DNA of 64,000 nt from Prevotella sp. (GTDB lineage: Bacteria; Bacteroidota; Bacteroidia; Bacteroidales; Bacteroidaceae), in NCBI GenBank assembly GCA_017449025.1, contig JAFSKJ010000097.1:163-64162 (forward strand), read 5' to 3'. Positions 2,035 to 52,007 of the stretch are shown one piece after another. Numbering within the stretch: position 1 is the stretch's first letter; each line of letters starts with the position of its first letter. Both the position numbers and the translations under genes were made by a program. Below the pieces are notes generated by a model. That model saw nothing but the letters and a program-made list of their open reading frames with translations. It was not told the DNA's origin and did not search any database.

Positions 2035-5000
2035 TTAATCGTCGTTGGCGTCGGGCAGGTCTCCGTATTCCGACGGTGCCACTCCGAAGTGCTTGCGGAA
2101 GATGGTGGAGAAGTGTGCGAGGTTTGAGAAGCCCACAGTGTATGCAACCTGCGTGACGTTTATCTTCTGCTCCTTAAGCAGGCGAGCGGCCTGTTCGAGA
2201 CGTATGTTGCGTATGAACTCGCTGGTTGACAGTCCGGTCATCTCTTTCATCTTGCGATGCAGTTGCGCGCGGCTGATGCCAACCTCCTGTGTCAGCATCT
2301 CCACGTTGAAGTCGCTGTCGGAGAGGTTTTTGTTAACAGCCTTCATGATGCGCTCCATCAGTTGCTCGTCGTTGCCCTTCACCTCCGGCTGTTCCAGCTT
2401 GTCGGCCTGCTGCTGCGCTCCTGTGAACTTGCCTTTGAGGCGCTGGCGCGACTGTATCAGGTTGTCGATGGTGAGGTGAAGCTCCTCCATGTCGAAGGGC
2501 TTGGCCAGGAATGCGTCGGCACCGCGCTCCAGGCCTTCGAGGCGGTTGCCCACGTCGGCCATTGAGGTGAGCATGATTACGGGTATGTGGGCTATGTTGA
2601 GGTTGGTCTTGATCATGCGGAGCATGGTGAATCCGTCCATCTCAGGCATCATCACGTCGGAGACCACGGCGGCGTAGTCGCTGCCAGTGAGCAGCTCCTT
2701 GAGGCCCTCCTTGCCGTTTTCGCAGATGTGGAACTTGTAGTAGTGTGAGAGTTCGGTGGAGATGAAACGCGCTAATTCTACGTCGTCGTCGACGATGAGC
2801 ACGCGGTGGCGCATTGAGCTTCCTCCCTTTGCAGGGGCAGCGGCCACAGTGGCAGTGGTGGTGGCGGCAGCGGCTGTTTCCGGCAGCTCCATCTCTTCGG
2901 GCTTCAGGTGTGCATTGCCTAAGGGCATGCGTACGGTGAACACTGAGCCTTTTATGCCGTCGGTGCGGTTGGTGGCCGTGATGGTGCCGTGGTGCATGTC
3001 GACAATCATCTTGCAGAGGTTGAGGCCTATGCCCGTGCTGTTGATGTTGAGGTGGCGGGCGTTGCGGCCCTGGTAGAAGCGGTCGAAGATGTGCTTCATG
3101 GTTTCTGTGTCGAGGCCTATGCCATTGTCAGTGACGGTGATGGCGAATGTCTCTGTGACATTCTTGCGTTGCGCATCCTGTTGCTCTCTGAAGAGCCTGA
3201 CCACCACCTCGCCGCCGTCTTCGCGGTTGTATTTGAAGGCGTTTGAGAGCAAGTTGGAGACAACCTTGTCGAACTGGTTGCGGTCAACCCAGGCTTCAAG
3301 CTGCTCAATGCCGTCGTGCTCGTAACGGAAGCTGATGTTGTTTTCCTTGGCATTGAACTCATACATCTTGCAGAGTCCCTTGACAAAGGCCACCATCTCA
3401 GTAGGCTGGCAGTGCAGCTGCATCTGCTGCTTGTCAATCTTCCTTACGTCGAGAATCTGGTTCACGAGGTTGAGAATGCGCTGTGAGTTGCGTTCTATGG
3501 TGTCGGCAGCGGGGCTTTTCTCTATTTTCTTCAGTGCTCCGAGGATGAGCGTCAGCGGTGAGCGTATGTCGTGAGTGGCATTGATGAGGAATTTCATTTT
3601 CTCCTCGTTCAGCTGCCTGTTTGTACGTCGGCGGTAAGTGTACAGCAAGTAGGCTCCCAAGGCGGCGAGCAGGAGCAGGTAGATGAAGTAGGCGGTGAGC
3701 GAGCGATACCAGGGTGCGCGTACAGTGACGTTGAAGACCCTCACCTGCGTGTACTCGTTGCGCTGATGTGCCCGCACTTCAATGCGGTAGGTGCCAGGCT
3801 GCAGGTGTCCCAGTGTGAAATCGTTCTTTCCTGCCGGATTGCTCACCCACGGCCCTCCGTTCACGCGGTATTCAAAGATGATGTTGCTGGATCTGCTGAA
3901 GTCGAACTGCGAGAAGACCATCGTCACCGTGTGGTCGAGATAGCTCAGTGTGAAATAGTTGCTCTCGTTGACGCTTCGGTCGGTAACCTCTACACCGTTG
4001 ATTCTGGTGCCGGCCTTGACAAACATGTCGCCTACTTGGAAAGCCGTCAGGACTATGGGAGACAGTTCTGTCTGGCTCACGGTCATCTTGTCTGGCGAGA
4101 AGACGGTGAAGCCGTCGTTGTTTCCGAAGTATATGAGGTTGTCGTCGGTGTGCATGCCAACGCCGTAGATGTATTCTTTCTGTATGAGGCCGTTGCCGCT
4201 GATGTGTCCTATGAAGGTGTGGGTGTCAAGGGCGTACTGCCAGATGCCCATTGATGTGGAGCACCAGATGTTGCCGTCGTTCGACTGCACGACATAGCAG
4301 ATGGCCTTGTTTTTCAGCTTCTCGCCGCCGGGGAACGGCTCCGGGGAGTGCTTGGCGGGGTCGTAGAGGTATAGTCCGCTCTCGGTGGCAATGGCTATGC
4401 AGCCGTTGAGCTTGCGCCCGTCGGGCAGCTGTCCGCTGTGCAGCTCGCACACGTCGAAGCACACTGTTCCGCTGAGTATGGATTCCCATCCCTGCGAGCG
4501 GAAGCTTTGGGTCTTTGGCTCATAGCATGCCACTCCCGACGAGGTGGCCATCCAGATGCGCCCCTTGCTGTCGGAAGACATACCCATTATCCAGTTGTTG
4601 CACAAACGTCCGTTGATGGTGTCGGTGTCGTCGAAGCTATGATTGCGGAGCAGTCCCGTCTGGGGGTTGTAGATGCAGAAGCCGCGTGAGAAAGTGGAGA
4701 TATAGATGTTTCCGTCGGCATCGCTGGTCATGTCGTTGAACTTGTCGCAGTCGAACTTGACGTGAAGCTTCGATTGCCCCGTCGTGGGGTCGTAGGCATA
4801 GAGACCGTCGTCGGAGCCGAGCCAGAAGCGGCGCAGCTTGTCGCGGAAGATGAACTCCACGGCATCGGGGGCCGACGGACGTGCCACTATGCGTCCCTGG
4901 CTGTTGAAGCCGAAGACGCCAACGCCCTGCACCGTACACCACACTATGCCGTTGTCGCCTTCGCATACCGACGACACTGTAGACCCGAGGCGTATGCCTT

Positions 5001-5991
5001 GCGACTCGAAGCTCCACGAATGGAATGCTGACTGGTTCTGGTGGACGAGGAGCAGACCCTTGTGGTGGCAGCCTATCCACAGGTTGCCGTTGCGGTCGAA
5101 CATGACGGCGCTAACCTTTGCCGTTTTCTCGTTGATGCCGATGGCATCGACATCAACGGGCTCCAAGCGTCTTGGGCGTGAGGAGGAAATGCGATAGATG
5201 CCTTTTCCGCGCGTACCTATATATATATTACCCTCGCTGTCTGTGGTGCTGTTAGAGAAAATCACGTCCTTGCCCTCCACTACGCTCATGTCGACGTCTG
5301 CCACTGCCATGTGGCCGTTGCGGTAGGCCATGATGCCGTGCTGGCAGATGATGAGCATGCCGTCGTCGAGTTCCTCAAATCCCTGTGGGTTTCCCATCTC
5401 GGAGTTGAAGTCCTCTATCTTAGTACCGTTGCGCATGGAGATGACATTGTCGAAGCCGCTTCGCCAGAGGCGACCACGGGAATCCTCGAATAACCGGCTG
5501 AAGTAATGACCGGATGACTCTACGGAGAACTGCTTCAGCTCGGAACCCTTGTCCACGCAATATGCGCCGTATCCGGCAGTGCCCACAAGAATGGTGCCGT
5601 CCTTGCGCTGCAGGATGCTCGACACACGTGGTGTGAGATTGTTGGGGAAGCGGTAGTGAATGAACGTTTCCGTGGAGCTGTCGAAACGGTCGAGGCCACG
5701 GTTGGTACCCACCCAAAGCTGGCCCTTGTCATCGCACAGCAGGCTCACAATGGCATTGGTCTGTATTGACGTTGTGTCGGCCTCGTCGTGGAGGAATGAC
5801 TGGAAATTGTAGCCGTCGAAGCGGTTAAGGCCATAGTCGGTGCCCACCCATACGGAGCCGAGCTTGTCCTGGCATAGGCTGGATATAAGACTGTTTGAAA
5901 AACGTTCGGCAGGAAAGAACAGTCCCGTCTGTGCAACAGCTGTAACGGCAATAAAAAACAGGTATAGTATAAGTGTAGTGCTTTTTTTCAT
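2035..5991 (-). CDS. Hybrid two-component system regulator (beta-propeller sensor, Y_Y_Y, TM, HisKA, HATPase, receiver, AraC HTH); HTCS-A
   Basis: GSVWVGTDYGLNRFDG propeller repeats, LQPGTYRIEVRA, THDIRSPLTLI, NLLSNAFKY, SDVMMPEMDG, VAYTVGFSNLAHFSTIFRKHFG. Start moved to ATG 5991 (MKKSTT + signal peptide) because the ORF-track 5' extension overlaps the promoter. Confidence 0.95.
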   Translation of the reverse strand: MKKSTTLILYLFFIAVTAVAQTGLFFPAERFSNSLISSLCQDKLGSVWVGTDYGLNRFDGYNFQSFLHDEADTTSIQTNAIVSLLCDDKGQLWVGTNRGLDRFDSSTETFIHYRFPNNLTPRVSSILQRKDGTILVGTAGYGAYCVDKGSELKQFSVESSGHYFSRLFEDSRGRLWRSGFDNVISMRNGTKIEDFNSEMGNPQGFEELDDGMLIICQHGIMAYRNGHMAVADVDMSVVEGKDVIFSNSTTDSEGNIYIGTRGKGIYRISSSRPRRLEPVDVDAIGINEKTAKVSAVMFDRNGNLWIGCHHKGLLLVHQNQSAFHSWSFESQGIRLGSTVSSVCEGDNGIVWCTVQGVGVFGFNSQGRIVARPSAPDAVEFIFRDKLRRFWLGSDDGLYAYDPTTGQSKLHVKFDCDKFNDMTSDADGNIYISTFSRGFCIYNPQTGLLRNHSFDDTDTINGRLCNNWIMGMSSDSKGRIWMATSSGVACYEPKTQSFRSQGWESILSGTVCFDVCELHSGQLPDGRKLNGCIAIATESGLYLYDPAKHSPEPFPGGEKLKNKAICYVVQSNDGNIWCSTSMGIWQYALDTHTFIGHISGNGLIQKEYIYGVGMHTDDNLIYFGNNDGFTVFSPDKMTVSQTELSPIVLTAFQVGDMFVKAGTRINGVEVTDRSVNESNYFTLSYLDHTVTMVFSQFDFSRSSNIIFEYRVNGGPWVSNPAGKNDFTLGHLQPGTYRIEVRAHQRNEYTQVRVFNVTVRAPWYRSLTAYFIYLLLLAALGAYLLYTYRRRTNRQLNEEKMKFLINATHDIRSPLTLILGALKKIEKSPAADTIERNSQRILNLVNQILDVRKIDKQQMQLHCQPTEMVAFVKGLCKMYEFNAKENNISFRYEHDGIEQLEAWVDRNQFDKVVSNLLSNAFKYNREDGGEVVVRLFREQQDAQRKNVTETFAITVTDNGIGLDTETMKHIFDRFYQGRNARHLNINSTGIGLNLCKMIVDMHHGTITATNRTDGIKGSVFTVRMPLGNAHLKPEEMELPETAAAATTTATVAAAPAKGGSSMRHRVLIVDDDVELARFISTELSHYYKFHICENGKEGLKELLTGSDYAAVVSDVMMPEMDGFTMLRMIKTNLNIAHIPVIMLTSMADVGNRLEGLERGADAFLAKPFDMEELHLTIDNLIQSRQRLKGKFTGAQQQADKLEQPEVKGNDEQLMERIMKAVNKNLSDSDFNVEMLTQEVGISRAQLHRKMKEMTGLSTSEFIRNIRLEQAARLLKEQKINVTQVAYTVGFSNLAHFSTIFRKHFGVAPSEYGDLPDANDD

Positions 5992-6029
5992 AGTTATGGT
6001 TAGTTTTCTTCTTGTTAGTGAGCTTTCGC

Positions 6030-6070
6030 GAATGCAAAGGTACAAATATTTATTGAAAAGTATCAAGAAA
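6030..6070 (-). promoter_or_regulatory. sigmaA promoter of HTCS-A
   Basis: TACCTTTGCA about 45-50 bp upstream of ATG 5991, with a TTG at about the -33 position. Confidence 0.6.
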
Positions 6071-6187
6071 CACGGATTTTTTTTCTTTTTCCTCTTCTTT
6101 TCTGCCACTTCCGATGCGTTTTTCCCGCAATTATGCCTTTTGTCTCTGTTGTTTCCGATGTTTTTCTATTTGTTTCATGGTTCTTGA

Positions 6188-6394
6188 CAAAAACCAGAAA
6201 CGGCCGCCGATATTCACATATGGGCGACCGCTGGGCATTAGTTTTACCATAACTAATAAGCTTTTTGAAAAACAACTACTAACTAAAAAATACTAACTAC
6301 TAACTAAAACTAACTTATGAAAAAAAACTATTATTCTCTATCTTGCTTTTTCAGAACAACTATCCGCCCCCTGACGGTGTTTCTTTCTGATTAC
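6188..6394 (-). ncRNA. Candidate small RNA 1 (~205 nt)
   Basis: Own TACCTTTG box (6406-6399); GC-rich terminator hairpin 6201-6230 with GUGA loop and U-rich tail; U/G-rich middle region; no credible ORF on this strand. Confidence 0.6.
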
Positions 6395-6397
6395 GAT

Positions 6398-6464
6398 GCA
6401 AAGGTACTTCATTTTCTTGATACTGACTATCTCGTTTGTTTCTTTACCTTTATTTTTCGTATTA
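6398..6464 (-). promoter_or_regulatory. sRNA1 promoter with HTCS-type operator
   Basis: TACCTTTG; half-sites TAATACGAA (6464-6456) and AGAAACAAA (6443-6435), at the same offset as in the other promoters. Confidence 0.55.
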
Positions 6465-6480
6465 TCCTGCATTTTTTATG

Positions 6481-6508
6481 AAAAAAGGCTCGAATAATCG
6501 AGCCTTTT
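6481..6508 (-). terminator. Rho-independent terminator of cassette A
   Basis: AAAAAAGGCTCGA-ataa-TCGAGCCTTTT just after the susD stop at 6523. Confidence 0.8.
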
Positions 6509-6522
6509 GAGTGTTTTGCTGC

Positions 6523-8268
6523 TTATTGCAGGGGTAAATACCAGTTTTTCGGTTCAAGCAGGCGGCTGCGGAGCGCGTCGTCTACTGTTCCGTTGCGGCG
6601 GCTGACGGGGTCGGCCAGATAGCTGGCATCGTTGCGGCGTAGAGCCACGCGCATGAGGTCGTAGAAGCGGTAGCCCTCGAAGGCGCCCTCCAAGGCCATC
6701 TCGTTGACAATCATGTCCTCGACCAGCGGAATCTGGTAGGCCACGGTATCGGCACGACTTGCCAGCTGTGTGGCAGGCATGGGAATCTGGTAGAGCGTGT
6801 CGCACTCGGCGCGGCCGCTGCCACGTGAGTGGATGCCCTGGGTGTTCTCTACCGTGAAATTGTCGCCATCGAAACTAATCATGCCGCCGCCGGTGGCACG
6901 CTCGTAATCATCAATCTGCTTGCTTATAATGTCAGCATAGAGACCGTACTTCAGTATGGCAAAGGCGGCCTGCGGGAATCCGGCACGGTTGAGGGCCTCG
7001 GCATAGCGCAGGTATACCATGTTGATGCGGTAGAGCGTCACGCCGTTGCGGTTTAACTTGTCGATGCTCTGGATTTCATTGGAGGTACGTGCGTAGCGTT
7101 CCTTGTTCGACACGCGGTTGGAGAAGGAGGTGCCAAAGCGGAGGTCGCCCGCATATTCGCTGTTATCCAGGTTCTCCTTGGGAGCATAGATGGTGTCCTG
7201 AGAACCGTCGGCCTTGGTGTAGGTGCCACAATAGTCGGATGCCGCCGACAGCTCACGCATGCGCTTAGTGGGCGTGGCCTGGGCAAACTGCTGGTTGATG
7301 CTTGTGGAGTTGAAAATGTTGGTAAGTTCGCTCTTGATGCCGTAGAAGCCGTTGCTCTCCATGGGGATGTAGCAGAGGCACTCGCTGCTCTGGCTGCCAT
7401 AGGAGAGAGAACTGCGGGTAGAGCGGAACTCCTTGGTGTTGATGTCGGCCCAAGTAGCGCTCGAACGGCCTGTCGGCAGGGGTGCCGTACGCAGCGAGAG
7501 GTAGTCGTGATAGTACTGGGCAGCCTCGGTGTAGCGTCCGGCCCACAGGCAGAGGTCGCCTAACAAGGCTCTCACGGGAATGAAGAACTTCTGGGAGTTC
7601 TGCTCGTTAATCTGTCCGTAGACGGGCAACTTGGTGTCGACGTAGGGTTTGATGTCGTCGATGAAATAGTTGCATATTTCGTTAATGCCGACAAAGCCCT
7701 GATTCATGGCATTCTGTGCATCTCCCTCAGTAAGCAGCGGCTCTGTGACTAAAGGAACATTGCCGTAGACCTGGGCCACTTGCAGGTAGGTCCATGCGCG
7801 GAAAGCCTTGACAACGGCATACTCAGCCTCGAACACCTTGCGGTCGTTCTTCACCAAGTCCTTGTTGACGTTCTTCAGGTAGTAGTTGCAGTTGTTGATG
7901 ACTGCGTAGTAGTCGCTGATGCGGTTATAGGCATTCTCGGTGTCCACGGTGAAGTTTGTGATGGCCTTCAGATCCTTACTGGCCGAAGCCGTGGTGGTGG
8001 TAAGGTCGCTACGCAACTCACCGAGCAGCACGGTGCGGTCGGCAATGGCCTGCAGCTTGTAGATGATGCCCATGACGCTGTAGACACTGTCGGTAGGTTC
8101 CTGCAAGCGGTTGTCCTCCAGGTTCTCCACCAGCTCGGAGTCGGTGTCCATGAGGTCGGAGCAGGAGGAGAAAGCCCACCCAAGCCCTCCCAAAGGGAGG
8201 AATGTCAATATGCCAGCAAGCCCCAAAATATGCGAAGTAATCCTTTGTTTTAATGTTTGCTTTTCCAT
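6523..8268 (-). CDS. susD: SusD/RagB family lipoprotein (cassette A, second pair)
   Basis: Lipobox FSSCSD; YYAVINNCNYYL, RAWTYL..YGNVPL, YLRYAEALN, EMALEGAFEGYRFYDLMR; lies downstream of a SusC gene. Confidence 0.93.
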   Translation of the reverse strand: MEKQTLKQRITSHILGLAGILTFLPLGGLGWAFSSCSDLMDTDSELVENLEDNRLQEPTDSVYSVMGIIYKLQAIADRTVLLGELRSDLTTTTASASKDLKAITNFTVDTENAYNRISDYYAVINNCNYYLKNVNKDLVKNDRKVFEAEYAVVKAFRAWTYLQVAQVYGNVPLVTEPLLTEGDAQNAMNQGFVGINEICNYFIDDIKPYVDTKLPVYGQINEQNSQKFFIPVRALLGDLCLWAGRYTEAAQYYHDYLSLRTAPLPTGRSSATWADINTKEFRSTRSSLSYGSQSSECLCYIPMESNGFYGIKSELTNIFNSTSINQQFAQATPTKRMRELSAASDYCGTYTKADGSQDTIYAPKENLDNSEYAGDLRFGTSFSNRVSNKERYARTSNEIQSIDKLNRNGVTLYRINMVYLRYAEALNRAGFPQAAFAILKYGLYADIISKQIDDYERATGGGMISFDGDNFTVENTQGIHSRGSGRAECDTLYQIPMPATQLASRADTVAYQIPLVEDMIVNEMALEGAFEGYRFYDLMRVALRRNDASYLADPVSRRNGTVDDALRSRLLEPKNWYLPLQ

Positions 8269-8347
8269 ATCCTTTTTATTGTTTATATATTAATCTTTAA
8301 TATCTATCCCACATCCCTCCCATTGGGAGGGCTTGGGTAGGCTTTTA
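8155..8347 (-). repeat. 193-bp susC-susD junction/signal-peptide module with ~29-bp terminal inverted arms; inverted copy at 51815-52007
   Basis: 176/193 identical to 51815-52007 with no gaps (counted by hand); arms AAGCCTACCCAAGCCCTCCCAA(T/A)GGGAGG and CCTCCCT(T/C)TGGGAGGGCTTGGGT. Confidence 0.9.
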
Positions 8348-11300
8348 TAGATTTATCTTCACACCCAGCGCGAAGGAGCGCGAGCTGGCCAGCAGGCCGC
8401 GGTCGATGCCCTGGAGCAGGGTGCTGCCGCTGACGCCGCAGTCAGGATCGGTGCCTAAGTATCGAGTCAGGGTAAAGATGTTGTAGGCGCCACCCCACAG
8501 GGTGATGCCCTGCAGGTAAGTGCTTGTGATGGGAATGGTGTAGCTCAGTGTGACATTGCTCAGGCGGAGGTAGCTGCCGTTCTCAATCCAGCGGTCGCTG
8601 AAGCGCGAGTTGCCCATGGGGTCGCCGTAGCTGATGCGCGGGATGTCGGTAGACTGGTTCTCGGCAGTCCAGTGCGACAGCATGGCCGTTGTCTGGTTGT
8701 GGAAGCGCGAGCCGCTCTCGAGCAGTGAACGCTGGTAATTATAGACATCGTTGCCCAAGGAATAGCGCATGGTGGCATTCAGCGACCAGTTCTTCCAGTT
8801 CAGGTGGGTATAGATGTTTCCATAGACATCGGGGTTGGGGTCGCCGATGATGAAACGGTCGTTCTCGTCGATGACACCGTTGTTGTCCTTGTCGACAAAG
8901 CGCATGTCGCCGGCACTGAAATATTCGCGCTGGTCACGGTCGTTAACCTGGTATAATCCGTCGGCCTCGGCCTCGGCCTGGGTGGCATAGACACCTTGAG
9001 TCTTGTAGCCATAGAACACACCGGCGGCGGTGCCCACCTGCGAGAGAATGGTGGCGCCGTAGGCCTCGGTCTCGAATGCCTTGTCATTGTCGGGCAGGGC
9101 GGTTATCTTGTTCACATAGTGACCGGCCGATGCGCCGACCTCCCAGCCAAAGTCCTTCAGGTTGAGTACTTTCACACCCATTCCCACCTCGAAGCCTTCG
9201 TTTTCGAGCTTGCCGTCGTTGCTCCAGTTTTCTGCCAGTCCGCTGGTCCATGCCAGCTGGCGCAGGGTGAGCAGGTTCTTGGTCCAGCCCTTGAAATAGT
9301 TGAAGTGTACATTCAGGCGATTGTTGATGAAGTTACCCTCCAAGCCGGCAGTCAGACGGGCAGTGGTCTCCCACTTGAGCGAGGTGTTGCCGATGTTGCC
9401 TATGGACTTGCCATCGACTTTCTGCGACAGCATGTTGTTGGCCACGAAATAGGTCTTCGAAGCAGTGTAGTCGACATTGTCGTTACCCGTTATGTCGAAG
9501 CCGAGGTTCAGGCGCAGGTAGTCAATGCCTTTGACATCGGCGAGCCACTTCTCGTTGCTCATCACCCACGCGGCATTGACGCTGGGGAAGAGTCCCCATA
9601 CCACTCCGCCGAGCTTCAGCCCGTCGGCATCGTCGCCGAAGCATGAACTGGTCTCTGCCGAGAGGCCGGCCTCCACGTAGTACTTCTCGGCATAGTTGTA
9701 GTCGGCCTGTGCATACCAGGTAAGGTCGCGGGCCTTGTCGTCGGCACCCCATGTGGAGCGGTAGTTGCGGGCATTGCCCGTGCTGGGGTACTTGTCGTTA
9801 CCTGTGTCGAAACCGCGCTGAGCCGTCAGCTTGTATCTGTTGCTCTGGTAGCGGATGCCTCCGAAGACGTCGATTTTGTGGGCATTGTAGCGGTTGCCCC
9901 ATGTCAGACGGGTGTCGCTCATGACGCTATTCTGGCGGGCAGCCATGCTCTGCGCCATGTTCTCCACCTGGATGTCGCTCGATGCCAACAGGCGGAAGGG
10001 CGGTGTTCCCTCGAGGGGCAGGTAGTAGTTCTCATTGGTGTTGACCAGCGTGAAGTTGAAGTGCTCGCTTAGCGAGAGGTGCTGGTTGAACTTAAAGCGC
10101 GGGGTGACGCTGAAGCTGACCATGCGGTTGCCTGCCTGGTTACGGTTCTTGCCGTCGCCTAACTGCAGTATGCCTATGGGGTTGGCCAGGCGCACCGAGT
10201 TGGCGTAGATTTCGCCATCATCCTCGAAGACCTTGCTGACGTAGTTGTCGGCATCGGCCAGATAGTGGCTGGGATTGCCGTTTATGTCGAAGGCGTATGG
10301 AGCCAGGAATGGCGACTTGACGAGTGACAGGAATCCCGGAGCTGTGATGGTGCCTACCGTCAGGTTTTCCTTGGCACCGTCGTCGCGCAGGTCGCGGTTG
10401 ACGTCGCTGTAGGAGGCATCGAATCGCACATCGAGTTTCCGTATGACGTTGATGTCGCTGTTCAGTCGCATGTTGAAACGCGAGAAGTCGTTGCCACGCA
10501 GGGTGGCGTCGCCAAGCGAATATCCCACCGACAGGTTGTAGTTGGCCACGTCGTCACCGCCCTGTACGTTGATGCCGTAGTTGGATACGAAGGTGTTGTG
10601 ATAGACCTCGTCGGTCCAGTCGGTATTATTATGATAGGTATTATAATAATAGTTGGAGGGATCGCTGTTGATGAACTCCAGGTTCTTCACATTGGCAGTA
10701 AGTCCCGAAAGCATCTCAGTGGCATAGAGGCGGTAGTCCTCGGCGCCCATCATCTTGGGCTGGCGCGGCATAAGCTGGTACTGGCCGTTGATGGTCACGT
10801 CGATCTTTGTGGCCATCGACTTGTTGCGCTTGGTCTTGATAAGCAGCACACCGGCGGCAGCCTTGGCGCCGTAGATGGCGGTGCCGTTCTTCATGACAGT
10901 GACGCTCTCGATGTCGTTGACGTTGAGGTTGGCCAGGATGTTGTTGTAATAGCCGTCGTGCAGCATTTCGCGGTTGTACTGCATGTCGGTGATGACACCG
11001 TCGATGACCACCAGCGGCTGGGCGCTGGTTTGCAGGCTGGTGAGACCGCCTATGAACATGGTGCTGCCCATGCCCAACTGTCCGCTACGCGTAACGGAAT
11101 GGATGTCGGCTCCCAACTGCTCGGCCATGAGCGGGTCGATGCTCAGGCGGGCTGTGTTGTCAAAGTCCTGAGCCGTGCGGGTGACGTACGACAGCGTAGT
11201 GGACTGGTAGACAGGACTGAAGGAATTTGGGTAGAGCTGGGCGTCGGCCTTTCCGTCCTTGCTTCCGATGGCTTTCTGCAGCAGCTGATAGCCGTCGACA

Positions 11301-11539
11301 CGCATGCTGACACTGTTTACATACTCGGGCATTTTCATCTGGTAGGTGCCCTTGTCATCGGTCATGGAGGTGTATCGATGGTTGCCGTAGGCTTCGACGA
11401 TGACACCGGCTAACGGTTGCCCCGTGGCGGCATCGACAACTGTTCCGCTGACCATTTTCATATTATCTTGCGCATTCGCCGTGATGGAGCCACAGGCGAA
11501 GCAAATCACGCAGAATATCTTTTGTAGCTTGGTAATCAT
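8345..11539 (-). CDS. susC: SusC/RagA TonB-dependent transporter (cassette A, second)
   Basis: PLVVIDGV, DIESVTVMKNGTAIYGAKAAAGVLLIKTKR, LKWETT, SYLRLSNVTLSY, C-terminal GVKINL; likely ATG at 11539 (MITKL). Confidence 0.95.
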   Translation of the reverse strand: MITKLQKIFCVICFACGSITANAQDNMKMVSGTVVDAATGQPLAGVIVEAYGNHRYTSMTDDKGTYQMKMPEYVNSVSMRVDGYQLLQKAIGSKDGKADAQLYPNSFSPVYQSTTLSYVTRTAQDFDNTARLSIDPLMAEQLGADIHSVTRSGQLGMGSTMFIGGLTSLQTSAQPLVVIDGVITDMQYNREMLHDGYYNNILANLNVNDIESVTVMKNGTAIYGAKAAAGVLLIKTKRNKSMATKIDVTINGQYQLMPRQPKMMGAEDYRLYATEMLSGLTANVKNLEFINSDPSNYYYNTYHNNTDWTDEVYHNTFVSNYGINVQGGDDVANYNLSVGYSLGDATLRGNDFSRFNMRLNSDINVIRKLDVRFDASYSDVNRDLRDDGAKENLTVGTITAPGFLSLVKSPFLAPYAFDINGNPSHYLADADNYVSKVFEDDGEIYANSVRLANPIGILQLGDGKNRNQAGNRMVSFSVTPRFKFNQHLSLSEHFNFTLVNTNENYYLPLEGTPPFRLLASSDIQVENMAQSMAARQNSVMSDTRLTWGNRYNAHKIDVFGGIRYQSNRYKLTAQRGFDTGNDKYPSTGNARNYRSTWGADDKARDLTWYAQADYNYAEKYYVEAGLSAETSSCFGDDADGLKLGGVVWGLFPSVNAAWVMSNEKWLADVKGIDYLRLNLGFDITGNDNVDYTASKTYFVANNMLSQKVDGKSIGNIGNTSLKWETTARLTAGLEGNFINNRLNVHFNYFKGWTKNLLTLRQLAWTSGLAENWSNDGKLENEGFEVGMGVKVLNLKDFGWEVGASAGHYVNKITALPDNDKAFETEAYGATILSQVGTAAGVFYGYKTQGVYATQAEAEADGLYQVNDRDQREYFSAGDMRFVDKDNNGVIDENDRFIIGDPNPDVYGNIYTHLNWKNWSLNATMRYSLGNDVYNYQRSLLESGSRFHNQTTAMLSHWTAENQSTDIPRISYGDPMGNSRFSDRWIENGSYLRLSNVTLSYTIPITSTYLQGITLWGGAYNIFTLTRYLGTDPDCGVSGSTLLQGIDRGLLASSRSFALGVKINL

Positions 11540-11566
11540 AATTATAAAATTTTTAATTATCAATTA

Positions 11567-13174
11567 TCAATTCTTCCTCGGTCGCAGGTAGATGCAGTCG
11601 AGAAGCATCTCGCGGGAGTACTTCAAACTTTCACGTGCCAGGATGGAGCACTTCAGCTTCACCGAGAACTTCATGTTTGTCTCGCCGTAGTTGCACACCG
11701 GGAATATGAAGTTCTCGGCAAGCATCACGGTGTCGACCCTCGTGGGGTCAGTGCTGAACTTGGTTTTGTTACAGTCGAAGACAACCTCCTTTCCTTTCTC
11801 ATCAACATAGTTGATTTCTGCCTGGAACATACAAGGCTTCAGCTGTGCGTATGGGTCGTAGACCGTCTGCGGCAGTATTACGGCACAGATGTCGTAAGCG
11901 CCTGCCAGAGTGTTCTCCAGCTTGAACGTCATCGTCCAGTTGCTGGTGTTCGTCTTGGGCGTGATGACCAGATATTCGTTCTCCGACACGCTGTCTGCAG
12001 CATGAATGCGCGTTGTATAGGTACAGGCATTGTCGTCGATAATCAGGCCGGTACGCTCGCCCTCAGTCCTCAGTTCACGATGATAGGTTGTGAGCGGTGT
12101 GAAAGGCCACTGTGAAGTGGTATAGAGTGTGCCGTTGCTGTACGTTGTCGGCGTGGCGTCATAAAGTATGCCACCCTCGTCGAAAGGACGGTGGAACACA
12201 TGGTACTTAGGATAGCGGCGGTTGTAGGCATAGGTGACGAGCGAGTCGGTGGGAGACGACTGGATGGTGCGGCTGAAAATGGCATCGCCAAGCAGAGCCT
12301 GATTGGCCCAGAGGCGCTGCAGCGAGTCGCCGTTCTCGACCGAGGCGTCAAAGCGGAAATAGTCCATGGCCTCCTGCCAGACCCGCTGCCACTCTGAGGC
12401 AGTGGGTGCGACAAAGATATAGGAAGAGTCTTCGGCGGCCAGCTCGCCCACACGCTCCAGCAGTAGGTTGCGCTCAATGAAGACTGAGTCGGCATAGACC
12501 TGCTCGCCATCAACCATTCCGCCCTCTACCGACTCAGTAGGGCTGAACTCCTCCTGCTCGTAGCTGGCCAGCTGCTCTCCAATCAGGCTGTAGCGCGAAT
12601 CGTTGAGCATAATCTCATAAAGGTTATAGCGATAGGGCAGCGTACTCTGAAGAACGTGCATTACACCGCCCTTCGCCCTGACGTTGGCCTCCTTGATGGG
12701 AACGTCGAGCACCTTGTTGTTGCCTATGGTAGTACGCTTGGTGTTCAGCAGGAAGAACTCAGTGGGTGTCTCCACGCTGGAAGTGGGGTGATAGGACAGG
12801 TGGTTGCCCACGAATGACCGCTCCACCATAGAGTCGCCCCTGTTGGTAGCCACCAGGCTGAGCACAGAGTCCTTGTTGAAAGAGCCGTTGACGGGTGCCA
12901 GCACGGTGAACGTCTGTACACCGTCGAGCAAGTCGGCATAGCTCACGTCGGTCTTCTTGTGGTGCTTGAAGACCTTGGTCTGGCTGAGCACCTCGCGGAA
13001 GTCGCTCAGCTCAGCACGCTGCTGCATAGCCTGCCAAAGAGTGGGCTCGCTGTCTGACAGGGAAAGCGGGTCTTCATAGTGGTCAGCCCATTCGGAGCAG
13101 GCGGTAAGGGCTGCGGCAGCGCCGCAGCACAGCCAACAGGCAGCGAGGGTATGTTTTATGCTTTTGGTAATCAT
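11567..13174 (-). CDS. Fasciclin (FAS1) domain lipoprotein, putative surface glycan-binding protein
   Basis: Lipobox LTACSE; FTVLAPVNGSF and AKGGVMHVL FAS1 motifs; paralog of 46710..48545; likely ATG at 13174. Confidence 0.8.
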   Translation of the reverse strand: MITKSIKHTLAACWLCCGAAAALTACSEWADHYEDPLSLSDSEPTLWQAMQQRAELSDFREVLSQTKVFKHHKKTDVSYADLLDGVQTFTVLAPVNGSFNKDSVLSLVATNRGDSMVERSFVGNHLSYHPTSSVETPTEFFLLNTKRTTIGNNKVLDVPIKEANVRAKGGVMHVLQSTLPYRYNLYEIMLNDSRYSLIGEQLASYEQEEFSPTESVEGGMVDGEQVYADSVFIERNLLLERVGELAAEDSSYIFVAPTASEWQRVWQEAMDYFRFDASVENGDSLQRLWANQALLGDAIFSRTIQSSPTDSLVTYAYNRRYPKYHVFHRPFDEGGILYDATPTTYSNGTLYTTSQWPFTPLTTYHRELRTEGERTGLIIDDNACTYTTRIHAADSVSENEYLVITPKTNTSNWTMTFKLENTLAGAYDICAVILPQTVYDPYAQLKPCMFQAEINYVDEKGKEVVFDCNKTKFSTDPTRVDTVMLAENFIFPVCNYGETNMKFSVKLKCSILARESLKYSREMLLDCIYLRPRKN

Positions 13175-13215
13175 AACTATTATCTTCAATTATCAATTAT
13201 CAGTTGTCAATTATC

Positions 13216-15195
13216 TTAGTGACGGTCTTCGCCGTCGGGGCTGTCGTAGACATCCTTGGGGCAAAGTTCTATGTAGTCAATGGACATATAGAGCGTGCTG
13301 CCTTCAAGAATCTGACGGAAGCGCAGCCAATAGTCCTGGTCGGCACGCATATATTGCTTCACCAAGATGCGACGCACGTCATTGCCATAGGTGCGGAAAG
13401 GCTCCGAAGTGCTGCCATAGCTGTCCATTGCCTTCATGAAGCCGCGGTTGCGCATGGCCTTGTCGATGGCCTTGTTCTCCTCCTCGTCGTCGGTGTCGGC
13501 TTCCCATCCTACGTTGGCATCGAAGTTACGGAAGCTGATGGGAATGCCGCAAGGCTCGTTGTTCAGATATACCTGCGCAATGCCTCGGTCGTCGCCGAGC
13601 GAATAGCCCAGGCGCACCTCGTAGGTGCCGTCGTGTGGCACGGGCGGCAGCTTGACGGAGGCGTCGAACTTCTCGCCTGTGATACAGACACCGCTGCCCT
13701 GATAGTGGCGCCAGCCGGTCTGCTCGTTGCCGCAGCCGATGAAAGTCTTGGCATTGTGCATCTTGAAGTCGGCGAGGAAGCCGTTCTTGAAGCCAATCAT
13801 CATCTCCTCCTTACCCATGTGCTCCATGCGGGCATGGCCGTTCATGAAGTCTGGACTGAGGCAGCTGCCGTCAATACGGATGCGGCGGTTGAGCACCTCC
13901 TCGCGTACTTTCTTCGAGTAGACCAGAATGTCGTCGATGTAGATGTAACGGCCGTTCTTGCACGACTGGGTGTAACTGTCGCCCTCGTCGTTCTTCAGTA
14001 CTCGTACGCCACGCACCGAGGCGTTGCTCTTCAAGCCCACGCGATTGATGTAAATCTCCTCACCGGGATTACTGCAGAAGCGGACAAGCGTGTGGGGTGC
14101 CATCGTCTCGTAGTAGTCCTCAGGGTCGTAGATGTTGAAGAGGCATTTCTGTGTATAGATGTCACCACGGCAGTGTACCCAGTAGTCGCGGGGGCCAGTG
14201 CGGTTGATGAGGTGATAGCTCACGAAGCGGTTCAGGGGATTATGGCGGTTCTTGAAGTCCTCGTCATACTTGCCGGCGTCATCGGGATACGACTCGTCGT
14301 AAACTTGCTTGGCGTATGCCTTCAAATCGTCAATGTTGTTGATGCCATGAACCTTAAATATGGAGTCGGTCTCGACGAACGCCGTGAACTTGAAGAATCG
14401 TTTTTCAGGATACCACGTCTTGCACTGCTTGGAAGCCGTTCCGTCGTTGGCTGTTCCGTATGGCACCTTGAAGCCTTTTCCGCCCCACGCCGAGTCGGGG
14501 TCGACGGTATAGGTGTCGTCATTGTACTTGGTCAGCGAGTCGGCGATGCCAGTGAGCTTGAGTGCCTGACAGAAGAGGGAGAGGTTGGGATTCTCCTCCA
14601 TCAGTGCGGGCAGGAACTGGTTGCTGGCCTGGATGACATGGTCGATGACGTGTACTACGCCGTTGGTCACAGAGTCGTCCTTCTGGATGATTCGGGAAAT
14701 CTTGTTCACATAAATCAACAGGGCGTTGTTGTTGTATACATCACTGTCGGAAGTCATCTCAATGTAGTCGTCGTTCATGTTGACGGGAGGCACCTCACCG
14801 CCCATGTCGGTTGTGAAGTAGGCCTTGTCCTGCACGATATGAGTGCGCGAAATGGTGTCGCACTGCTCGCGGGGCAGGGCGTCGAGCGACGCATAGCCGT
14901 TCTCCTTGAGGAACTTCTGAATGGCCTCGTTAGTGGGGGCGAAGACGGTGTAGTGTCCGTAGGTCTGCAAGATGGAGAGGTAGTTGCTGCGCTCCAAAAT
15001 GGTCTTGAAGTCGCTGAACTGTGCTTCATTGGCTTCGATGAAACCGGCAGCCGTGAGGCGCACCGAAGAGTAGAAGTTCAGCGGGGCGTCGCTGTCGTCG
15101 TCGCTACAGGAGGTAAAGGCAGCAGCGGTAAGGGCTGCGGCAAAGCCACAGCACAGCCAACAGGTGGATATCTTGTTAATAAACTTGTTAATCAT
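13216..15195 (-). CDS. Tandem FAS1 domain lipoprotein with a C-terminal beta-sandwich (DUF5108-like)
   Basis: Lipobox FTSCSD; YTVFAPTNEAI, NGVVHVIDHV; paralog of 44587..46677; likely ATG at 15195. Confidence 0.85.
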   Translation of the reverse strand: MINKFINKISTCWLCCGFAAALTAAAFTSCSDDDSDAPLNFYSSVRLTAAGFIEANEAQFSDFKTILERSNYLSILQTYGHYTVFAPTNEAIQKFLKENGYASLDALPREQCDTISRTHIVQDKAYFTTDMGGEVPPVNMNDDYIEMTSDSDVYNNNALLIYVNKISRIIQKDDSVTNGVVHVIDHVIQASNQFLPALMEENPNLSLFCQALKLTGIADSLTKYNDDTYTVDPDSAWGGKGFKVPYGTANDGTASKQCKTWYPEKRFFKFTAFVETDSIFKVHGINNIDDLKAYAKQVYDESYPDDAGKYDEDFKNRHNPLNRFVSYHLINRTGPRDYWVHCRGDIYTQKCLFNIYDPEDYYETMAPHTLVRFCSNPGEEIYINRVGLKSNASVRGVRVLKNDEGDSYTQSCKNGRYIYIDDILVYSKKVREEVLNRRIRIDGSCLSPDFMNGHARMEHMGKEEMMIGFKNGFLADFKMHNAKTFIGCGNEQTGWRHYQGSGVCITGEKFDASVKLPPVPHDGTYEVRLGYSLGDDRGIAQVYLNNEPCGIPISFRNFDANVGWEADTDDEEENKAIDKAMRNRGFMKAMDSYGSTSEPFRTYGNDVRRILVKQYMRADQDYWLRFRQILEGSTLYMSIDYIELCPKDVYDSPDGEDRH

Positions 15196-15221
15196 AATCT
15201 TCAATCTTCAATTTTCAATCT

Positions 15222-16928
15222 TCAATTCTTCTCCAGATCAGCATCATCGCCTGTGTTGTAGGCAGGATTCTGCTTCAGATAGGGGTTCACCTTCAGCTCG
15301 TTTCGGTAGTATGGCAGATAGAGCGCGTTGGGGTCTGCCAGGCGAATCTGGATTCCGCTCACGTTGGTTACCTGCTTCTTGGTGACGGTAGTGGCGAGCT
15401 GCCTGGTGCTGCCCGTGCGGCGTGCCTGACGCAGCAGGTCGTACCAGCGCTTGCCCTCGAACATCAGCTCACGGTGGCGCTCATCCATGACAAGCTGCTC
15501 CATGTCCTCCTTGGAGTCCTTGTAGTCGTTGAACTTCAGGACTTCTCCCGAGCCGGGCGAGAACGAGTTGACGGCGCGCTTGCTTACGGCATTGATCAGC
15601 GAGAAGGCACTCTCGAAGTTGTCGCTGCCCAGTTCGATGAGGGCCTCGGCCTTCATCAGCAAGACCTCGGTCAGGCGGTAGACAATCCAGTGTGCATAAT
15701 CGTTGGAACGCCAGGAGTATTCAGGACTCCAGTTGCTCTTCGTGTTGTCAATGGTGACCCTGTTGGCAGCATACTTGGCAATATAGTACTGCGTGGTTCC
15801 CACCTGATAGATGGACTCGTAGGCGCGGCAGTCGTTCACATTGAAGAGTTCGGTGCTCTTGTTGGGCAGGTCGCCGTAGAACTCGTCGAAGGGAGCCAGC
15901 CGTCCCGACGACATGGTGTTGCCGCTGGTGTTGAGATAATAGGTTCGTACGTAGCCGTTCTTGTTGTCCTTGTTGAGCGTCTCGTTGAACGTGAGTTCGA
16001 AAAGGCTCTCGAACGAGTTGCCCTCGCCGAAGATTTCATTATAGGCATTGCCCGAGGTGTTCTCGGTCTTTTCCATAATGAGGGGGATGTCGTTGAAGAG
16101 GTACACATCGTTTTGCAGACGGCGCTTCAGGCTCTCGTATTCCTTCTGCTTGAAGTCGATGACAAAGTCGCAGCACTCGATGCACTTCTGCCAGTTTCCC
16201 TGCCAGAGGTAGAGGTCGGCCAGCAGGGCATAGATTGCCGGGCGTGTGACGCGGGCCGTATTGTCGCGCTCGGCGCTTTCCTTCTGCTTGTCGGGATTGG
16301 GCTTGCGGAAGTAGAGCTGTGCATCGTCCTTCACGGCTTCCAGGTCTTCAATCAGATTGGTGAGTATGGTGTCGAACGAGGTGGCCGGCAACTGATATTC
16401 CTGCTTATCGGTGATGCTGGGCTCACGGGTGAAGGGAACATCACGGAAGGCACGGATGAGGTGGAAGTAGCACAGGGAACGGATGAACGTGGCCTCGGCA
16501 ATGTTGGCCTTCATCTCTGTAAGCGCATAGTTAGGGTCGAGGTCCTGAACCTCCGGGGCATAGTGTATTACGATGTTGCACCGGTTGATGGTCTGGTAGA
16601 ACGATGCCCAGTTGCAGAAGGGGTTGCTTGGCAGAAGGTCTTCCTTCACCAGCTGCTCCAGGTCCTGCGACGAGGAGACGCCGATGATCATGTTGTCGGA
16701 ACGGGCCTCGCCCCAGAGTCCCATGCGGGTGATGCAGTCCTCTGCATAAAGGCTTTCATAGCAGCCCATAAGCACACTGGTCACGTCGCTCTTCTTTGTC
16801 CAGTAGTTTTCGAGCACCACGTCGTTCAGCGGCTTCAGGTCGAGGAAGTCGGAGCAGGCGGTGAAGGCTGCAGCAGTGCCGCAGCACAGCAAACACGCGG
16901 TGATTTGATGTCTTATCTTGGTAATCAT
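15222..16928 (-). CDS. susD: SusD/RagB family lipoprotein (cassette A, first pair)
   Basis: Lipobox FTACSD; WASFYQTINRCN, YRLTEVLLMKAEA, ERHRELMFEGKRWYDLLR, LKQNPAY. Confidence 0.95.
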   Translation of the reverse strand: MITKIRHQITACLLCCGTAAAFTACSDFLDLKPLNDVVLENYWTKKSDVTSVLMGCYESLYAEDCITRMGLWGEARSDNMIIGVSSSQDLEQLVKEDLLPSNPFCNWASFYQTINRCNIVIHYAPEVQDLDPNYALTEMKANIAEATFIRSLCYFHLIRAFRDVPFTREPSITDKQEYQLPATSFDTILTNLIEDLEAVKDDAQLYFRKPNPDKQKESAERDNTARVTRPAIYALLADLYLWQGNWQKCIECCDFVIDFKQKEYESLKRRLQNDVYLFNDIPLIMEKTENTSGNAYNEIFGEGNSFESLFELTFNETLNKDNKNGYVRTYYLNTSGNTMSSGRLAPFDEFYGDLPNKSTELFNVNDCRAYESIYQVGTTQYYIAKYAANRVTIDNTKSNWSPEYSWRSNDYAHWIVYRLTEVLLMKAEALIELGSDNFESAFSLINAVSKRAVNSFSPGSGEVLKFNDYKDSKEDMEQLVMDERHRELMFEGKRWYDLLRQARRTGSTRQLATTVTKKQVTNVSGIQIRLADPNALYLPYYRNELKVNPYLKQNPAYNTGDDADLEKN

Positions 16929-16942
16929 AATATTTTCCTTAT

Positions 16943-19900: not shown

Positions 19901-20290
19901 CTTGGAGGTGACGGTCACCTCCTTTATCTGTGTGGCGTCCACCAGCTTCACAATGAACTTCGTCTTGTTAAAAGGAAGGGTCACCGTCTTGTATCCCACA
20001 TACGAGATACGGAGCTTGTCCTTCGGGTTCTTCAACTTGAACGAGAAGTTACCGCTCATGTCGGTCTGAGCGGAGGCCACTATGCGGTTGGCAGCATCAA
20101 GCTCCACCACATTGGCCATCATCACAGGGCCGAAATTGTCGGACACCGTTCCGCTGATGATGTCGCCGGCCTTCTGCGCAAAACAGATTGAAGATTGAAA
20201 AATGAAGATTGACAGTTGCAGGCAGAAAGCCGCAATCCACAATCTCTTTGACCAATCCTCACGTGGGAATAAATGTTCTATTGTCTTCAT
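16943..20290 (-). CDS. susC: SusC/RagA TonB-dependent transporter (cassette A, first)
   Basis: ALQGRIAGL, VLKDAAATAIWGSQGANGVIEIKTKRG, RRDGSTKFG, terminal Phe (VTVSF); likely ATG at 20290. Confidence 0.96.
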   Translation of the reverse strand: MKTIEHLFPREDWSKRLWIAAFCLQLSIFIFQSSICFAQKAGDIISGTVSDNFGPVMMANVVELDAANRIVASAQTDMSGNFSFKLKNPKDKLRISYVGYKTVTLPFNKTKFIVKLVDATQIKEVTVTSKKRAQGSGLAIPQKEISTARQSIDMKEFEGLAITTVDEALQGRIAGLDIVANSGNLGSGTSMRLRGVSSINGSSEPLIVVDGNVWETGNTDNFDFSSANDEKFAELLNVNPEDIESIAVLKDAAATAIWGSQGANGVIEIKTKRGARGKTKVTYSLRLTGTYQPEGMKLLNGDEYTMMLKEEYFNPHLQAGASDNIDEINYRSGGEFSEYQMYNENTDWVDAVKKTGWRQNHYLALSGGGEKANFRIAAGYDHETGSIIKQKLDRFTTRVALDYFVSNRIKIQTNVALTYTDNKKNYADLLSVAYRRMPNLAIYEQDKDGNSLGTYYNMLPTVNEVFRDNQLKDYNPVALADLAKNEETSYNIEPEFKLNYELLSFEEEKSRLTYEGKIVFNIFNRYNDMFRPLSLSTGGWSSSDANLATNNAYKSLGITTTHTLTFVPHFRNLDHSLMMMLRGQLTDGNSTSQNTSEYGLPTGTIISASAPGIISSFGSSPGQWRSIYLTYSAHYAFKGRYILDFSVRRDGSTKFGPDQRWGNFPALSGKYIISDEPWFKKGLPFVSMLAIRPGWGIVGAQPGSEGLFYSKYTGGKGYMDNGSVYQSNVQLKNLKWEQKETFNLGIDFGFWDDRINGNVEVYRQKTTDLLMGNRSLPSSSGFSSLAYQNVGSMENVGWEFNLNGNNIIKKGKFGVDFNITFANNRNKLTEMDETVLASLNSDFDRKNGSYLSRVELNRPLGGIYGFRYKGVYQYSKYSEEEVPGVSGPNAPVARDENGNVILDNYGRTKPMVFCYTGTDDEDKEFHGGDAIYEDVNADGQINELDIVYLGSSLPKFTGGFGFKLHWGRLTWNNQFNFRYGNKIINKARMNAENMYSNNNQSRAVLWRWRVEGDVSPIPRALYNYGYNWLGSDRFVEDGSFIRLNYSQLSYALSPKSLKKVGLSQLSLYVSANNLFVLTKYSGADPEVGYGGYGIVTDNAQTPRAKSFTAGVTVSF

Positions 20291-20309
20291 AATCTTCAAT
20301 TTTCAATCT

Positions 20310-39314: not shown

Positions 39315-39317
39315 GGC

Positions 39318-42707: not shown

Positions 42708-42753
42708 TAGGAGATAATGTTTAAATGAGGAAAAGAGAAATTATCTAATCATT

Positions 42754-44568: not shown

Positions 44569-44586
44569 TCTGCAACAGTGAATATT

Positions 44587-46677: not shown

Positions 46678-46709
46678 CATTAGTAATTAGAAATTAGATA
46701 TTAAAGACT

Positions 46710-48545: not shown

Positions 48546-48574
48546 TCTTATGAATCTTTAAGAATTGTATAGAT

Positions 48575-51817: not shown

Positions 51818-52007
51818 AAGCCTACCCAAGCCCTCCCAAAGGGAGGGGTGTGGGATAGATATTAAAGCTTGATATATAAACATTATAAAGGATATGGAAA
51901 TGCAAACAATAAAACATAGGATTACTTCGCATATTTTGGGGCTTGCTGGCTTATTAACATCCCTCCCTCTGGGAGGGCTTGGGTTGGCCCTCACCTCCTG
52001 CTCCGAC
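51815..52007 (+). repeat. Second copy of the 193-bp junction/signal-peptide module
   Basis: 91% identical, in inverted orientation, to 8155-8347. Confidence 0.9.

What the first reader, a model, noticed from the sequence alone, without database searches (positions are those of the whole stretch)
6188..6464. Unannotated, probably HTCS-inducible sRNA complementary to the start region of the neighbouring HTCS gene
Seen: a self-contained minus-strand unit with a TACCTTTG promoter, the locus operator motif and a GUGA-loop terminator. Its body is the reverse complement of a typical A-rich Bacteroidota initiation region. Segment 6306-6326 (plus strand AAAACTAAC-T-TATGAAAAAAA) matches the HTCS-A mRNA AAAACUAAC-CAUAAC-UAUGAAAAAAA (6007-5982) in 9+11 nt across the AUG. 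A second segment, 6246-6255 (ACCATAACTA), matches 6000-5991 exactly. ACTAACT occurs several times. Established: PUL-regulating sRNAs that target initiation regions are known in Bacteroides (DonS, FopS family). Inference: a negative-feedback loop in which an HTCS induces an sRNA that blocks its own or other PULs' translation. AU-rich matches can arise by chance.
Basis: partly seen in the sequence, partly recalled or inferred. Interest (0 to 1): 0.85.

Follow-up and report, generated by a model that had tools for sequence, protein, structure and literature searches.

The report
Small RNA silencing its xylan sensor
Rumen Prevotella-type bacteria carry a conserved, roughly 205-base predicted RNA gene whose core mirrors the start of the neighbouring fibre-sensor gene (an HTCS) and changes together with it across relatives, so the sensor likely switches this RNA on during xylan use and the RNA likely blocks the sensor's own translation; no transcript has been seen yet.

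Summary
The element is real and conserved. A minus-strand unit (activator-type site 6464-6427, TACCTTTG promoter, GNRA terminator hairpin with covariation, no conserved ORF) recurs in 82 distinct related loci, 64 directly upstream of the same HTCS. The site is in 49 of 72 HTCS leaders with the RNA, 0 of 53 without. Rewired seeds match rewired leaders, even with a whole gene in between. The upstream motif is a 21-bp-period direct repeat, shared at the same position with xylanase, xylosidase, esterase and susC promoters. Best reading: an HTCS-induced sRNA represses its own HTCS, like OmrA/B on ompR. It is not FopS, DonS or Bacteroides-1. Against: no expression evidence; in this genome alone HTCS ranks only 21 of 2198 targets; the sister-pair swap test is moderate and the G-U strand test negative; which HTCS binds the operator is untested. 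No PUL-gene target was found. The scan had not noted this element on other DNA.

The parts
6427..6464 (-). Predicted HTCS activator site: half-sites 6464-6458 and 6443-6437 (21-bp period) plus conserved GATAG 6431-6427
   Evidence: A matrix from 71 related promoters (own left out) ranks this site first of 2559 promoter-like sites in the genome; position-specific; coordinates
6399..6406 (-). Bacteroidota -7 promoter box TACCTTTG of the RNA; start of transcription inferred near 6394
   Evidence: conserved with the operator in 70 of 79 assessable loci; +1 spacing inferred from FopS-10 primers
6189..6394 (-). Predicted sRNA, about 205 nt (about 90-245 nt in relatives)
   Evidence: no conserved ORF on either strand
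6364..6377 (-). Small 5' hairpin in the variable part of the RNA, not conserved
   Evidence: one search shows the 5' parts differ between genomes
6306..6328 (-).
6273..6300 (-). Module S2, UUAGUAGUU-type repeats (58 of 74 loci); serves as the pairing partner of the HTCS leader in relatives that lost S3
6237..6255 (-). Module S3, conserved 19-nt seed complementary to the HTCS leader just upstream of AUG
6189..6232 (-). Terminator-type hairpin (6232-6199) with GNRA loop (GUGA 6217-6214), conserved 1x1 mismatch, and U-tract to about 6189
   Evidence: 98.1% of cells paired, 5 of 12 pairs with changes on both sides
6150..6178 (-). Second direct-repeat site, here about 110 nt upstream of the HTCS promoter box; in 22 of 64 loci such a repeat lies directly at the HTCS promoter
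6035..6042 (-). HTCS gene's own -7 promoter box; leader about 39 nt, predicted unstructured
5982..6007 (-). Predicted target site in the HTCS mRNA, spanning the AUG at 5991-5989
2035..5991 (-). HTCS-A, 1318 aa hybrid two-component system
   Evidence: Pfam Reg_prop, HisKA, HATPase_c, Response_reg, HTH_18
6483..6508 (-). Terminator of the upstream fasciclin/double-SusCD operon, separating it from the RNA promoter

Best explanation
This is a conserved, single-copy, predicted small RNA gene that sits in front of a xylan-regulon HTCS gene, carries a seed complementary to that HTCS mRNA's start region, is likely switched on by the HTCS, and likely blocks its translation in trans, forming a negative feedback loop. 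Shown by sequence comparison: own promoter, terminator-type hairpin with covariation, no conserved ORF, a seed that co-occurs and co-changes with a site at about -14 to -1 of the HTCS AUG, and a 21-bp direct repeat shared with xylan-degradation promoters. Inferred: (1) the RNA is transcribed; (2) HTCS-A (or its paralog HTCS-B) binds the repeat and activates it when xylo-oligosaccharides are sensed; (3) pairing covers the unstructured leader that Bacteroidota ribosomes read and so represses initiation; (4) the result caps sensor level and speeds shut-off of the regulon.
For: Conservation: seed pattern in 19 of 400 genus genomes plus own, reversed-pattern control in 5 genomes, and all 20 have the HTCS directly downstream. 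A metagenome scan on the hairpin alone gave 120 loci; with earlier loci, 82 distinct elements, 64 with the HTCS start within 900 nt. Structure. Specificity: seed vs own HTCS start mean -18.0 kcal/mol, p<=0.01 in 52 of 63, vs -5 to -8 for the seven PUL gene classes; RCCATA in 49 of 72 HTCS leaders with the RNA, 0 of 53 without, 52 of 2198 genome-wide. Co-change: L152/L158 A-to-U in seed with U-to-A in leader; rewired seed and leader in L167, L258, L285; shift to S2 in L184/L263 and L252; own pairs beat permuted pairs, 0 of 20000. Trans: in G314 and G276 a whole gene separates RNA and HTCS, which keeps its own promoter and the site; in G314 a changed seed extension is matched by the leader, -28.9 kcal/mol. 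Induction: 10 promoters score above 0 at the exact spacing, at most 1 at any of 20 other spacings; genes behind them include GH10, GH43/GH5, GH3, GH31+glucuronoyl esterase, acetyl esterases, SusC; 21-bp direct repeats are the HTCS site type (PMC3878776 passages). Promoterless copies start just after the susD stop, so they too would be co-induced with the PUL.
Against: No expression evidence: only assembled contigs were available. In this genome alone HTCS-A ranks 21 of 2198 with accessibility, behind several other genes. The permutation test ignores kinship; the sister-pair swap test is moderate (own better 21, swap better 10, ties 7 of 38; sign p 0.07, Wilcoxon p 0.012). The G-U strand test gave no support (sense duplex better in 31 of 77; core substitutions 7 wobble vs 11 breaking). 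HTCS leaders without the RNA mostly belong to other clades (tree), so 0 of 53 is not 53 independent tests. HTCS-B is 59% identical in the DNA-binding end and could read the same operator. 18 of 82 elements have no HTCS within reach (several loci are truncated), and four of them have a divergent seed. Some pairs are weak (L050, L172, L281). Modules S1 and S2 have no identified conserved target.
Confidence: 0.6

Rival explanations
1. The RNA is a multi-target start-codon blocker in the manner of FopS, or is induced by another regulator (such as HTCS-B), so that it ranks or cross-regulates glycan systems and HTCS-A is one target among several rather than a self-limiting loop.
For: S1 resembles the FopS/GibS 5' seed; S1 and S2 are conserved beyond need for the HTCS pairing; other genes rank above HTCS-A in this genome; HTCS-B is a close paralog.
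Against: No conserved second target: PUL genes negative, the best S3 hit (a CotH gene) not conserved in 0 of 17 orthologues, seed-before-ATG pattern no more frequent than its control apart from the HTCS. RNA and HTCS-A travel together as a unit.
Confidence: 0.17
2. The pairing stabilises or activates the HTCS mRNA (positive feedback), for example by shielding its short leader from a nuclease.
For: Sequence cannot give the sign; the HTCS promoter itself carries the repeat in 22 of 64 loci, which suggests positive autoregulation.
Against: The site abuts or covers the AUG and the -3 position (PMC6847099 abstract); the leader has no inhibitory structure to open (MFE 0.0); FopS and GibS repress at such sites.
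Confidence: 0.09
3. The element acts in cis: read-through from the induced upstream promoter makes a long leader in which the seed folds back on the HTCS start region.
For: Same strand, 83-550 nt apart in 64 loci; interrupted U-tract in this copy.
Against: A promoter for the HTCS lies between the two in all 64 loci; complementarity is kept across 1.8-2 kb and an intervening gene in G276 and G314.
Confidence: 0.08
4. The two matching stretches are DNA inverted repeats: ends of an invertible segment holding the HTCS promoter, or two binding sites of one protein.
For: Perfect 19-nt inverted repeat in G344; the G-U strand test does not favour RNA.
Against: No inverted copy: every HTCS hit lies downstream in the same orientation; most repeats are short, imperfect or bulged; fully different seed/leader pairs (L167, L258, L285) cannot be one protein's site.
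Confidence: 0.04
5. It is only a spare promoter and terminator and the complementarity is AU-rich chance.
For: Modest rank in this genome alone.
Confidence: 0.02

Closest known systems
OmrA/OmrB and ompR of Escherichia coli (PMC2588501, abstract and outline seen)
   Same: sRNA activated by a two-component regulator that pairs with that regulator's own mRNA: the same loop logic as predicted here
   Different: No sequence relation tested or expected; different phylum; Hfq-dependent, whereas Bacteroides has no obvious Hfq (PMC7366714 passage); here the regulator is a one-chain glycan sensor and the RNA is encoded next to it
FopS family and GibS of Bacteroides thetaiotaomicron (PMC11697453 passages and supplementary oligo table; PMC7366714 passages)
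   Same: Trans-encoded, AU-rich, canonical promoter, pairs at translation initiation regions in glycan metabolism; module S1 shares the UUUUUCAUA anti-AUG core
   Different: Single copy, about 205 nt, main seed next to the terminator rather than at the 5' end, predicted target is the regulator not susC, predicted substrate-induced operator, no Rfam match
DonS-type PUL antisense RNAs (as described in passages of PMC7366714, PMC10994844, PMC13750123; original paper not read)
   Same: PUL-linked RNA predicted to damp glycan utilisation
   Different: Not antisense-overlapping: same strand as its target, separate gene, imperfect pairing
SrcF of Segatella copri (10.1101/2024.04.05.588293 passages)
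   Same: Prevotella-group sRNA tied to an HTCS and to PUL expression
Bacteroides-1 RNA motif, Rfam RF01694 (PMC2864571 table passage)
   Same: Hairpin tip UAU-GUGA-AUA, lies downstream of genes
   Different: 22 and 26.6 bits against a threshold of 43; second hairpin missing
roc (BT3172) mRNA leader control (PMC10294740 passages)
   Same: A PUL sensor protein is controlled after transcription through its short 5' leader; an sRNA or RNA-binding protein was hypothesised
   Different: The factor for roc is unknown and Cur-dependent; here a candidate RNA sits beside its HTCS and shares the regulon's operator

Membership tests
Trans-encoded base-pairing sRNA | Own promoter and intrinsic terminator | tested here: met
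   Operator plus promoter in 70 of 79 assessable loci; hairpin covariation
Trans-encoded base-pairing sRNA | No conserved ORF | tested here: met
   AUG in S3 falls in all three frames relative to the hairpin (30/27/18), products 3-63 aa; antisense ORFs 2-66 aa, unrelated
Trans-encoded base-pairing sRNA | Conserved seed with conserved, co-varying target | tested here: met
   sister-pair test only moderate and strand test negative
Trans-encoded base-pairing sRNA | Discrete transcript exists | tested here: inconclusive
   Only contigs of 4 runs, which cannot show ends, strand or level
FopS/GibS | R1 seed at the very 5' end | tested here: not met
   The similar stretch lies about 65-90 nt into the RNA and only YUCAUA is kept, in 49 of 74
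FopS/GibS | 12-15 paralogs per genome, 65-70 nt | tested here: not met
   One copy in this 81%-complete genome; about 205 nt
FopS/GibS | Targets first genes (susC) of PUL operons | tested here: not met
   No conserved match to the seven genes of the adjacent PUL in 18 regions examined; other PULs of relatives not tested
FopS/GibS | Match to the Rfam model | tested here: not met
   No FopS or GibS row among 17 matches at E<=10 or 23 at E<=1 in 18 homologous loci
FopS/GibS | RbpB binding | not testable with these tools
   needs CLIP or EMSA
DonS-type cis-antisense RNA | Overlaps the susC leader on the opposite strand | tested here: not met
   Same strand and downstream of the PUL here; in five genomes divergent from the PUL with back-to-back, non-overlapping promoters
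Bacteroides-1 (RF01694) | Score at the gathering threshold; two hairpins | tested here: not met
OmrA/B-type feedback sRNA (works-like only) | Transcription activated by the regulator it targets | tested here: inconclusive
   HTCS-type repeat shared with xylan promoters; binding protein not identified
OmrA/B-type feedback sRNA (works-like only) | Represses the regulator's synthesis | not testable with these tools
   inferred from site position

The most novel reading that the evidence does not exclude
Glycan-sensing HTCS genes of Bacteroidota can travel with a dedicated, modular feedback RNA whose seed is rewired whenever the sensor's leader changes: a general riboregulatory brake on PUL sensors, of which this xylan family and the differently seeded copies beside distant HTCS paralogs (L281, L285) are the first examples, and which could also explain leader-dependent control of sensors such as Roc.
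Probability: 0.25. Interest if true: 0.82.

Novelty: new variant of a known kind. Interest (0 to 1): 0.64.

Why it matters
HTCS proteins are the main switches for fibre degradation in gut and rumen Bacteroidota. The Bacteroidota sRNAs listed in a 2026 review (PMC13750123 Table 1) act on transporters, enzymes, transfer genes or unknown targets; none is listed as targeting an HTCS mRNA, and my searches ('HTCS mRNA' 0 occurrences in the 8 papers) found no such report in the open-access library. A feedback RNA on the xylan sensor of a dominant rumen group would add a layer to PUL control and give a concrete, testable model for the open question of leader-dependent control of PUL sensors (Roc). It also comes with natural compensatory variants that define the experiment.

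Tried and rejected
BLASTN of the element against 60 relatives gave only promoter-like and AU-rich fragments; homologues were reached through proteins and motifs instead. Rfam: nothing at threshold in the window; weak hits only. Sequencing runs: contigs only; X2 (4% of words) is no evidence. Small ORFs on either strand, including the 54-aa plus-strand ORF at 6317-6481: not conserved. GTATCAAG, present near both promoters here, is in 1 of 74 homologous promoters, so it is not the operator. A CotH gene that is the best S3 match in this genome: site absent in 17 of 17 orthologues. PUL genes as targets: negative. Seed-before-ATG search in 20 genomes: no second recurrent target evident, counts like the control. 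Viral contigs: 15 seed matches, none with the hairpin, judged chance. Family-wide model search: 6 of 150 genomes with weak hits (28-38 bits) in unrelated contexts, not counted as members. G-U strand test negative. One search had a faulty option and gave no HTCS hits; redone. One search timed out; redone in reduced form (top 420 hybrids only). Rows dropped: 5 start codons were reassigned by hand to the next in-frame ATG; L135 dropped as truncated; L064, L117 and the own locus left out of the matrix; 2 loci without ATG left out; gene calls in the own genome are from my own simple caller (2198 genes) and miss some starts.

Full report
Observation. The window is part of an 81%-complete genome whose relatives are labelled Prevotella or Prevotellaceae, several from rumen. 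On the minus strand a fasciclin/double-SusCD operon ends at 6523, followed by its terminator (6508-6483), then the element, then a 1318-aa HTCS starting at 5991. The element has a TACCTTTG box at 6406-6399; by the spacing in FopS-10 primers transcription would start near 6394 (inference). It ends in a hairpin at 6232-6199 with a GUGA loop and a U-tract to about 6189. The HTCS has its own box at 6042-6035. No Rfam family reaches threshold. The element is single-copy in this genome.

Conservation. Of 16 loci found with the susD protein, 8 have the element followed by the HTCS and 8 have neither within the locus. The 19-nt seed pattern occurs in 19 of 400 genus genomes plus the own one; all 20 have the HTCS next. 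Pooling and removing duplicates gave 82 distinct elements, 64 with the HTCS start within 900 nt and 18 without, several of these truncated. Choosing by HTCS protein only, 12 of 40 further homologues without the exact seed had the element upstream, and 4 of 10 genomes searched whole had it farther away or on another contig (G212, G276, G314, G201). In 32 more distant HTCS homologues there was no convincing match. RNA and HTCS move as a unit: downstream of the PUL, divergent from it, or away from it. The hairpin is 98.1% paired over 26 sequences, 5 of 12 pairs change on both sides, slid controls reach at most 58%; the loop is GNGA and the tip is more conserved than a terminator needs. No ORF is conserved on either strand.

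The pairing. The conserved seed S3 (6255-6237) is complementary to the HTCS leader just before the AUG. Against each locus's own start region it averages -18.0 kcal/mol and beats shuffled leaders at p<=0.01 in 52 and p<=0.05 in 60 of 63 loci; PUL gene starts give -5 to -8. The core site is in 49 of 72 HTCS leaders with the RNA, 0 of 53 without and 52 of 2198 starts in the own genome; none of the loci was selected for the target site, but the RNA-less HTCS are mostly other clades. Natural changes go together: a single compensatory exchange in L152/L158; rewired seed and leader in L167, L258 and L285; where S3 lost its core (L184/L263, L252) the leader instead matches the upstream S2 repeats. 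Own pairs beat permuted pairs (-20.4 vs -18.2 +/- 0.3, 0 of 20000), a test blind to kinship; among 38 nearest-relative pairs own was better in 21, swapped in 10, tied in 7 (Wilcoxon p 0.012, sign p 0.07). A test for G-U strand bias was negative. In G314 and G276 a whole gene lies between RNA and HTCS and the match is kept, in G314 with a changed extension on both sides; this argues for action in trans. S1 resembles the FopS/GibS seed, which may simply reflect that AUGAAAAA is a common start. No conserved second target was found.

Induction. A matrix from 71 homologous RNA promoters puts the window's site first of 2559 promoter-like sites. Ten sites score above zero at the exact spacing, at most one at any of 20 other spacings. 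They show two half-sites 21 bp apart, the form reported for HTCS sites (PMC3878776, passages). Genes behind them include GH10, GH43/GH5, GH3, GH31 with glucuronoyl esterase, two acetyl esterases and a SusC; three have no Pfam match. The PUL promoter at 22962 scores weakly (-5.6). So the RNA likely belongs to a xylan regulon. Which protein binds is not shown; HTCS-B in the same window is 59% identical in the DNA-binding end.

Mechanism. Most likely (0.6): xylo-oligosaccharides activate HTCS-A, which induces the xylan genes and this RNA; the RNA pairs over about -14 to the AUG of the HTCS mRNA, whose short leader is unstructured and includes the -3 position important for initiation in this phylum (PMC6847099, abstract); translation of the sensor falls, limiting and shortening the response. 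Anatomy, conservation, complementarity and co-change are shown computationally; transcription, the inducer and the sign are inferred. Rivals: multi-target or HTCS-B-driven regulation (0.17), positive feedback (0.09), cis read-through leader (0.08), DNA inverted repeat (0.04; no inverted copy among HTCS hits), chance (0.02).

Known systems. It would work like OmrA/B on ompR (PMC2588501, abstract) and, at the level of pairing, like FopS and GibS (PMC11697453, PMC7366714, passages; one supplementary table), but fails the FopS, DonS and Bacteroides-1 membership tests. SrcF is HTCS-controlled with unknown targets (bioRxiv 2024.04.05.588293, passages; supplement closed). The Roc sensor is controlled through its leader by an unknown factor (PMC10294740, passages). 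Also seen: PMC13750123 (first part and passages), PMC10994844, PMC2864571 and PMC11107044 (passages; the last gave nothing on this locus). Searches found no sRNA reported to target an HTCS mRNA; the library lacks most subscription papers. Earlier notes of the scan show no record of this element; one describes the cassette and several describe phage anti-start RNAs.

Verdict. A real, undescribed, lineage-restricted sRNA family with strong comparative support for pairing to its HTCS mRNA, and plausible but unproven feedback. New variant of a known kind; interest 0.64.

Noticed in passing
window 6523-22907 (-), 36672-53768 (+); G000:C10 near 23592: Two copies in the window, and apparently a third on another contig, of a seven-gene cassette with two SusC/SusD pairs and fasciclin-type lipoproteins.
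   Followed up: partly
window 56731-60672 (-): HTCS-B, 47.5% identical to HTCS-A, last gene of an operon, without the RNA or the target site.
   Followed up: partly
window promoters at 1433, 22962, 56306; G000 C113, C25, C50, C52, C109, C4: A genome-wide xylan regulon marked by a 21-bp-period repeat at -58/-37 from the promoter box; the PUL promoter of relatives shows further half-sites near -100/-79 (regex hit in 5 of 11 relatives). Several members are large proteins with no Pfam match.
   Followed up: partly
L281:480-544, L285:647-715: The same GNRA hairpin with different seeds in the 3' UTR of the gene upstream of distant HTCS paralogs; in L285 the seed is a 14-nt complement of its own HTCS leader.
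   Followed up: partly
L087, L136, L105, L117, L119, L070, L258, L294, L295: Promoterless forms that begin right after the susD stop codon, likely 3'-UTR-derived versions of the RNA.
   Followed up: partly
L189-L193, L301: Other promoter + U-rich + GNGA-loop terminator units beside unrelated genes, mostly in other genera: possibly a wider class of sRNA 3' ends, shared with Bacteroides-1.
   Followed up: no
L061 (G344:C17:30837-31010): Seed and HTCS leader form a perfect 19-nt inverted repeat.
   Followed up: yes
window 22616-22629 (-): A match to the seed's complement inside the first fasciclin gene's coding sequence; probably chance.
   Followed up: no
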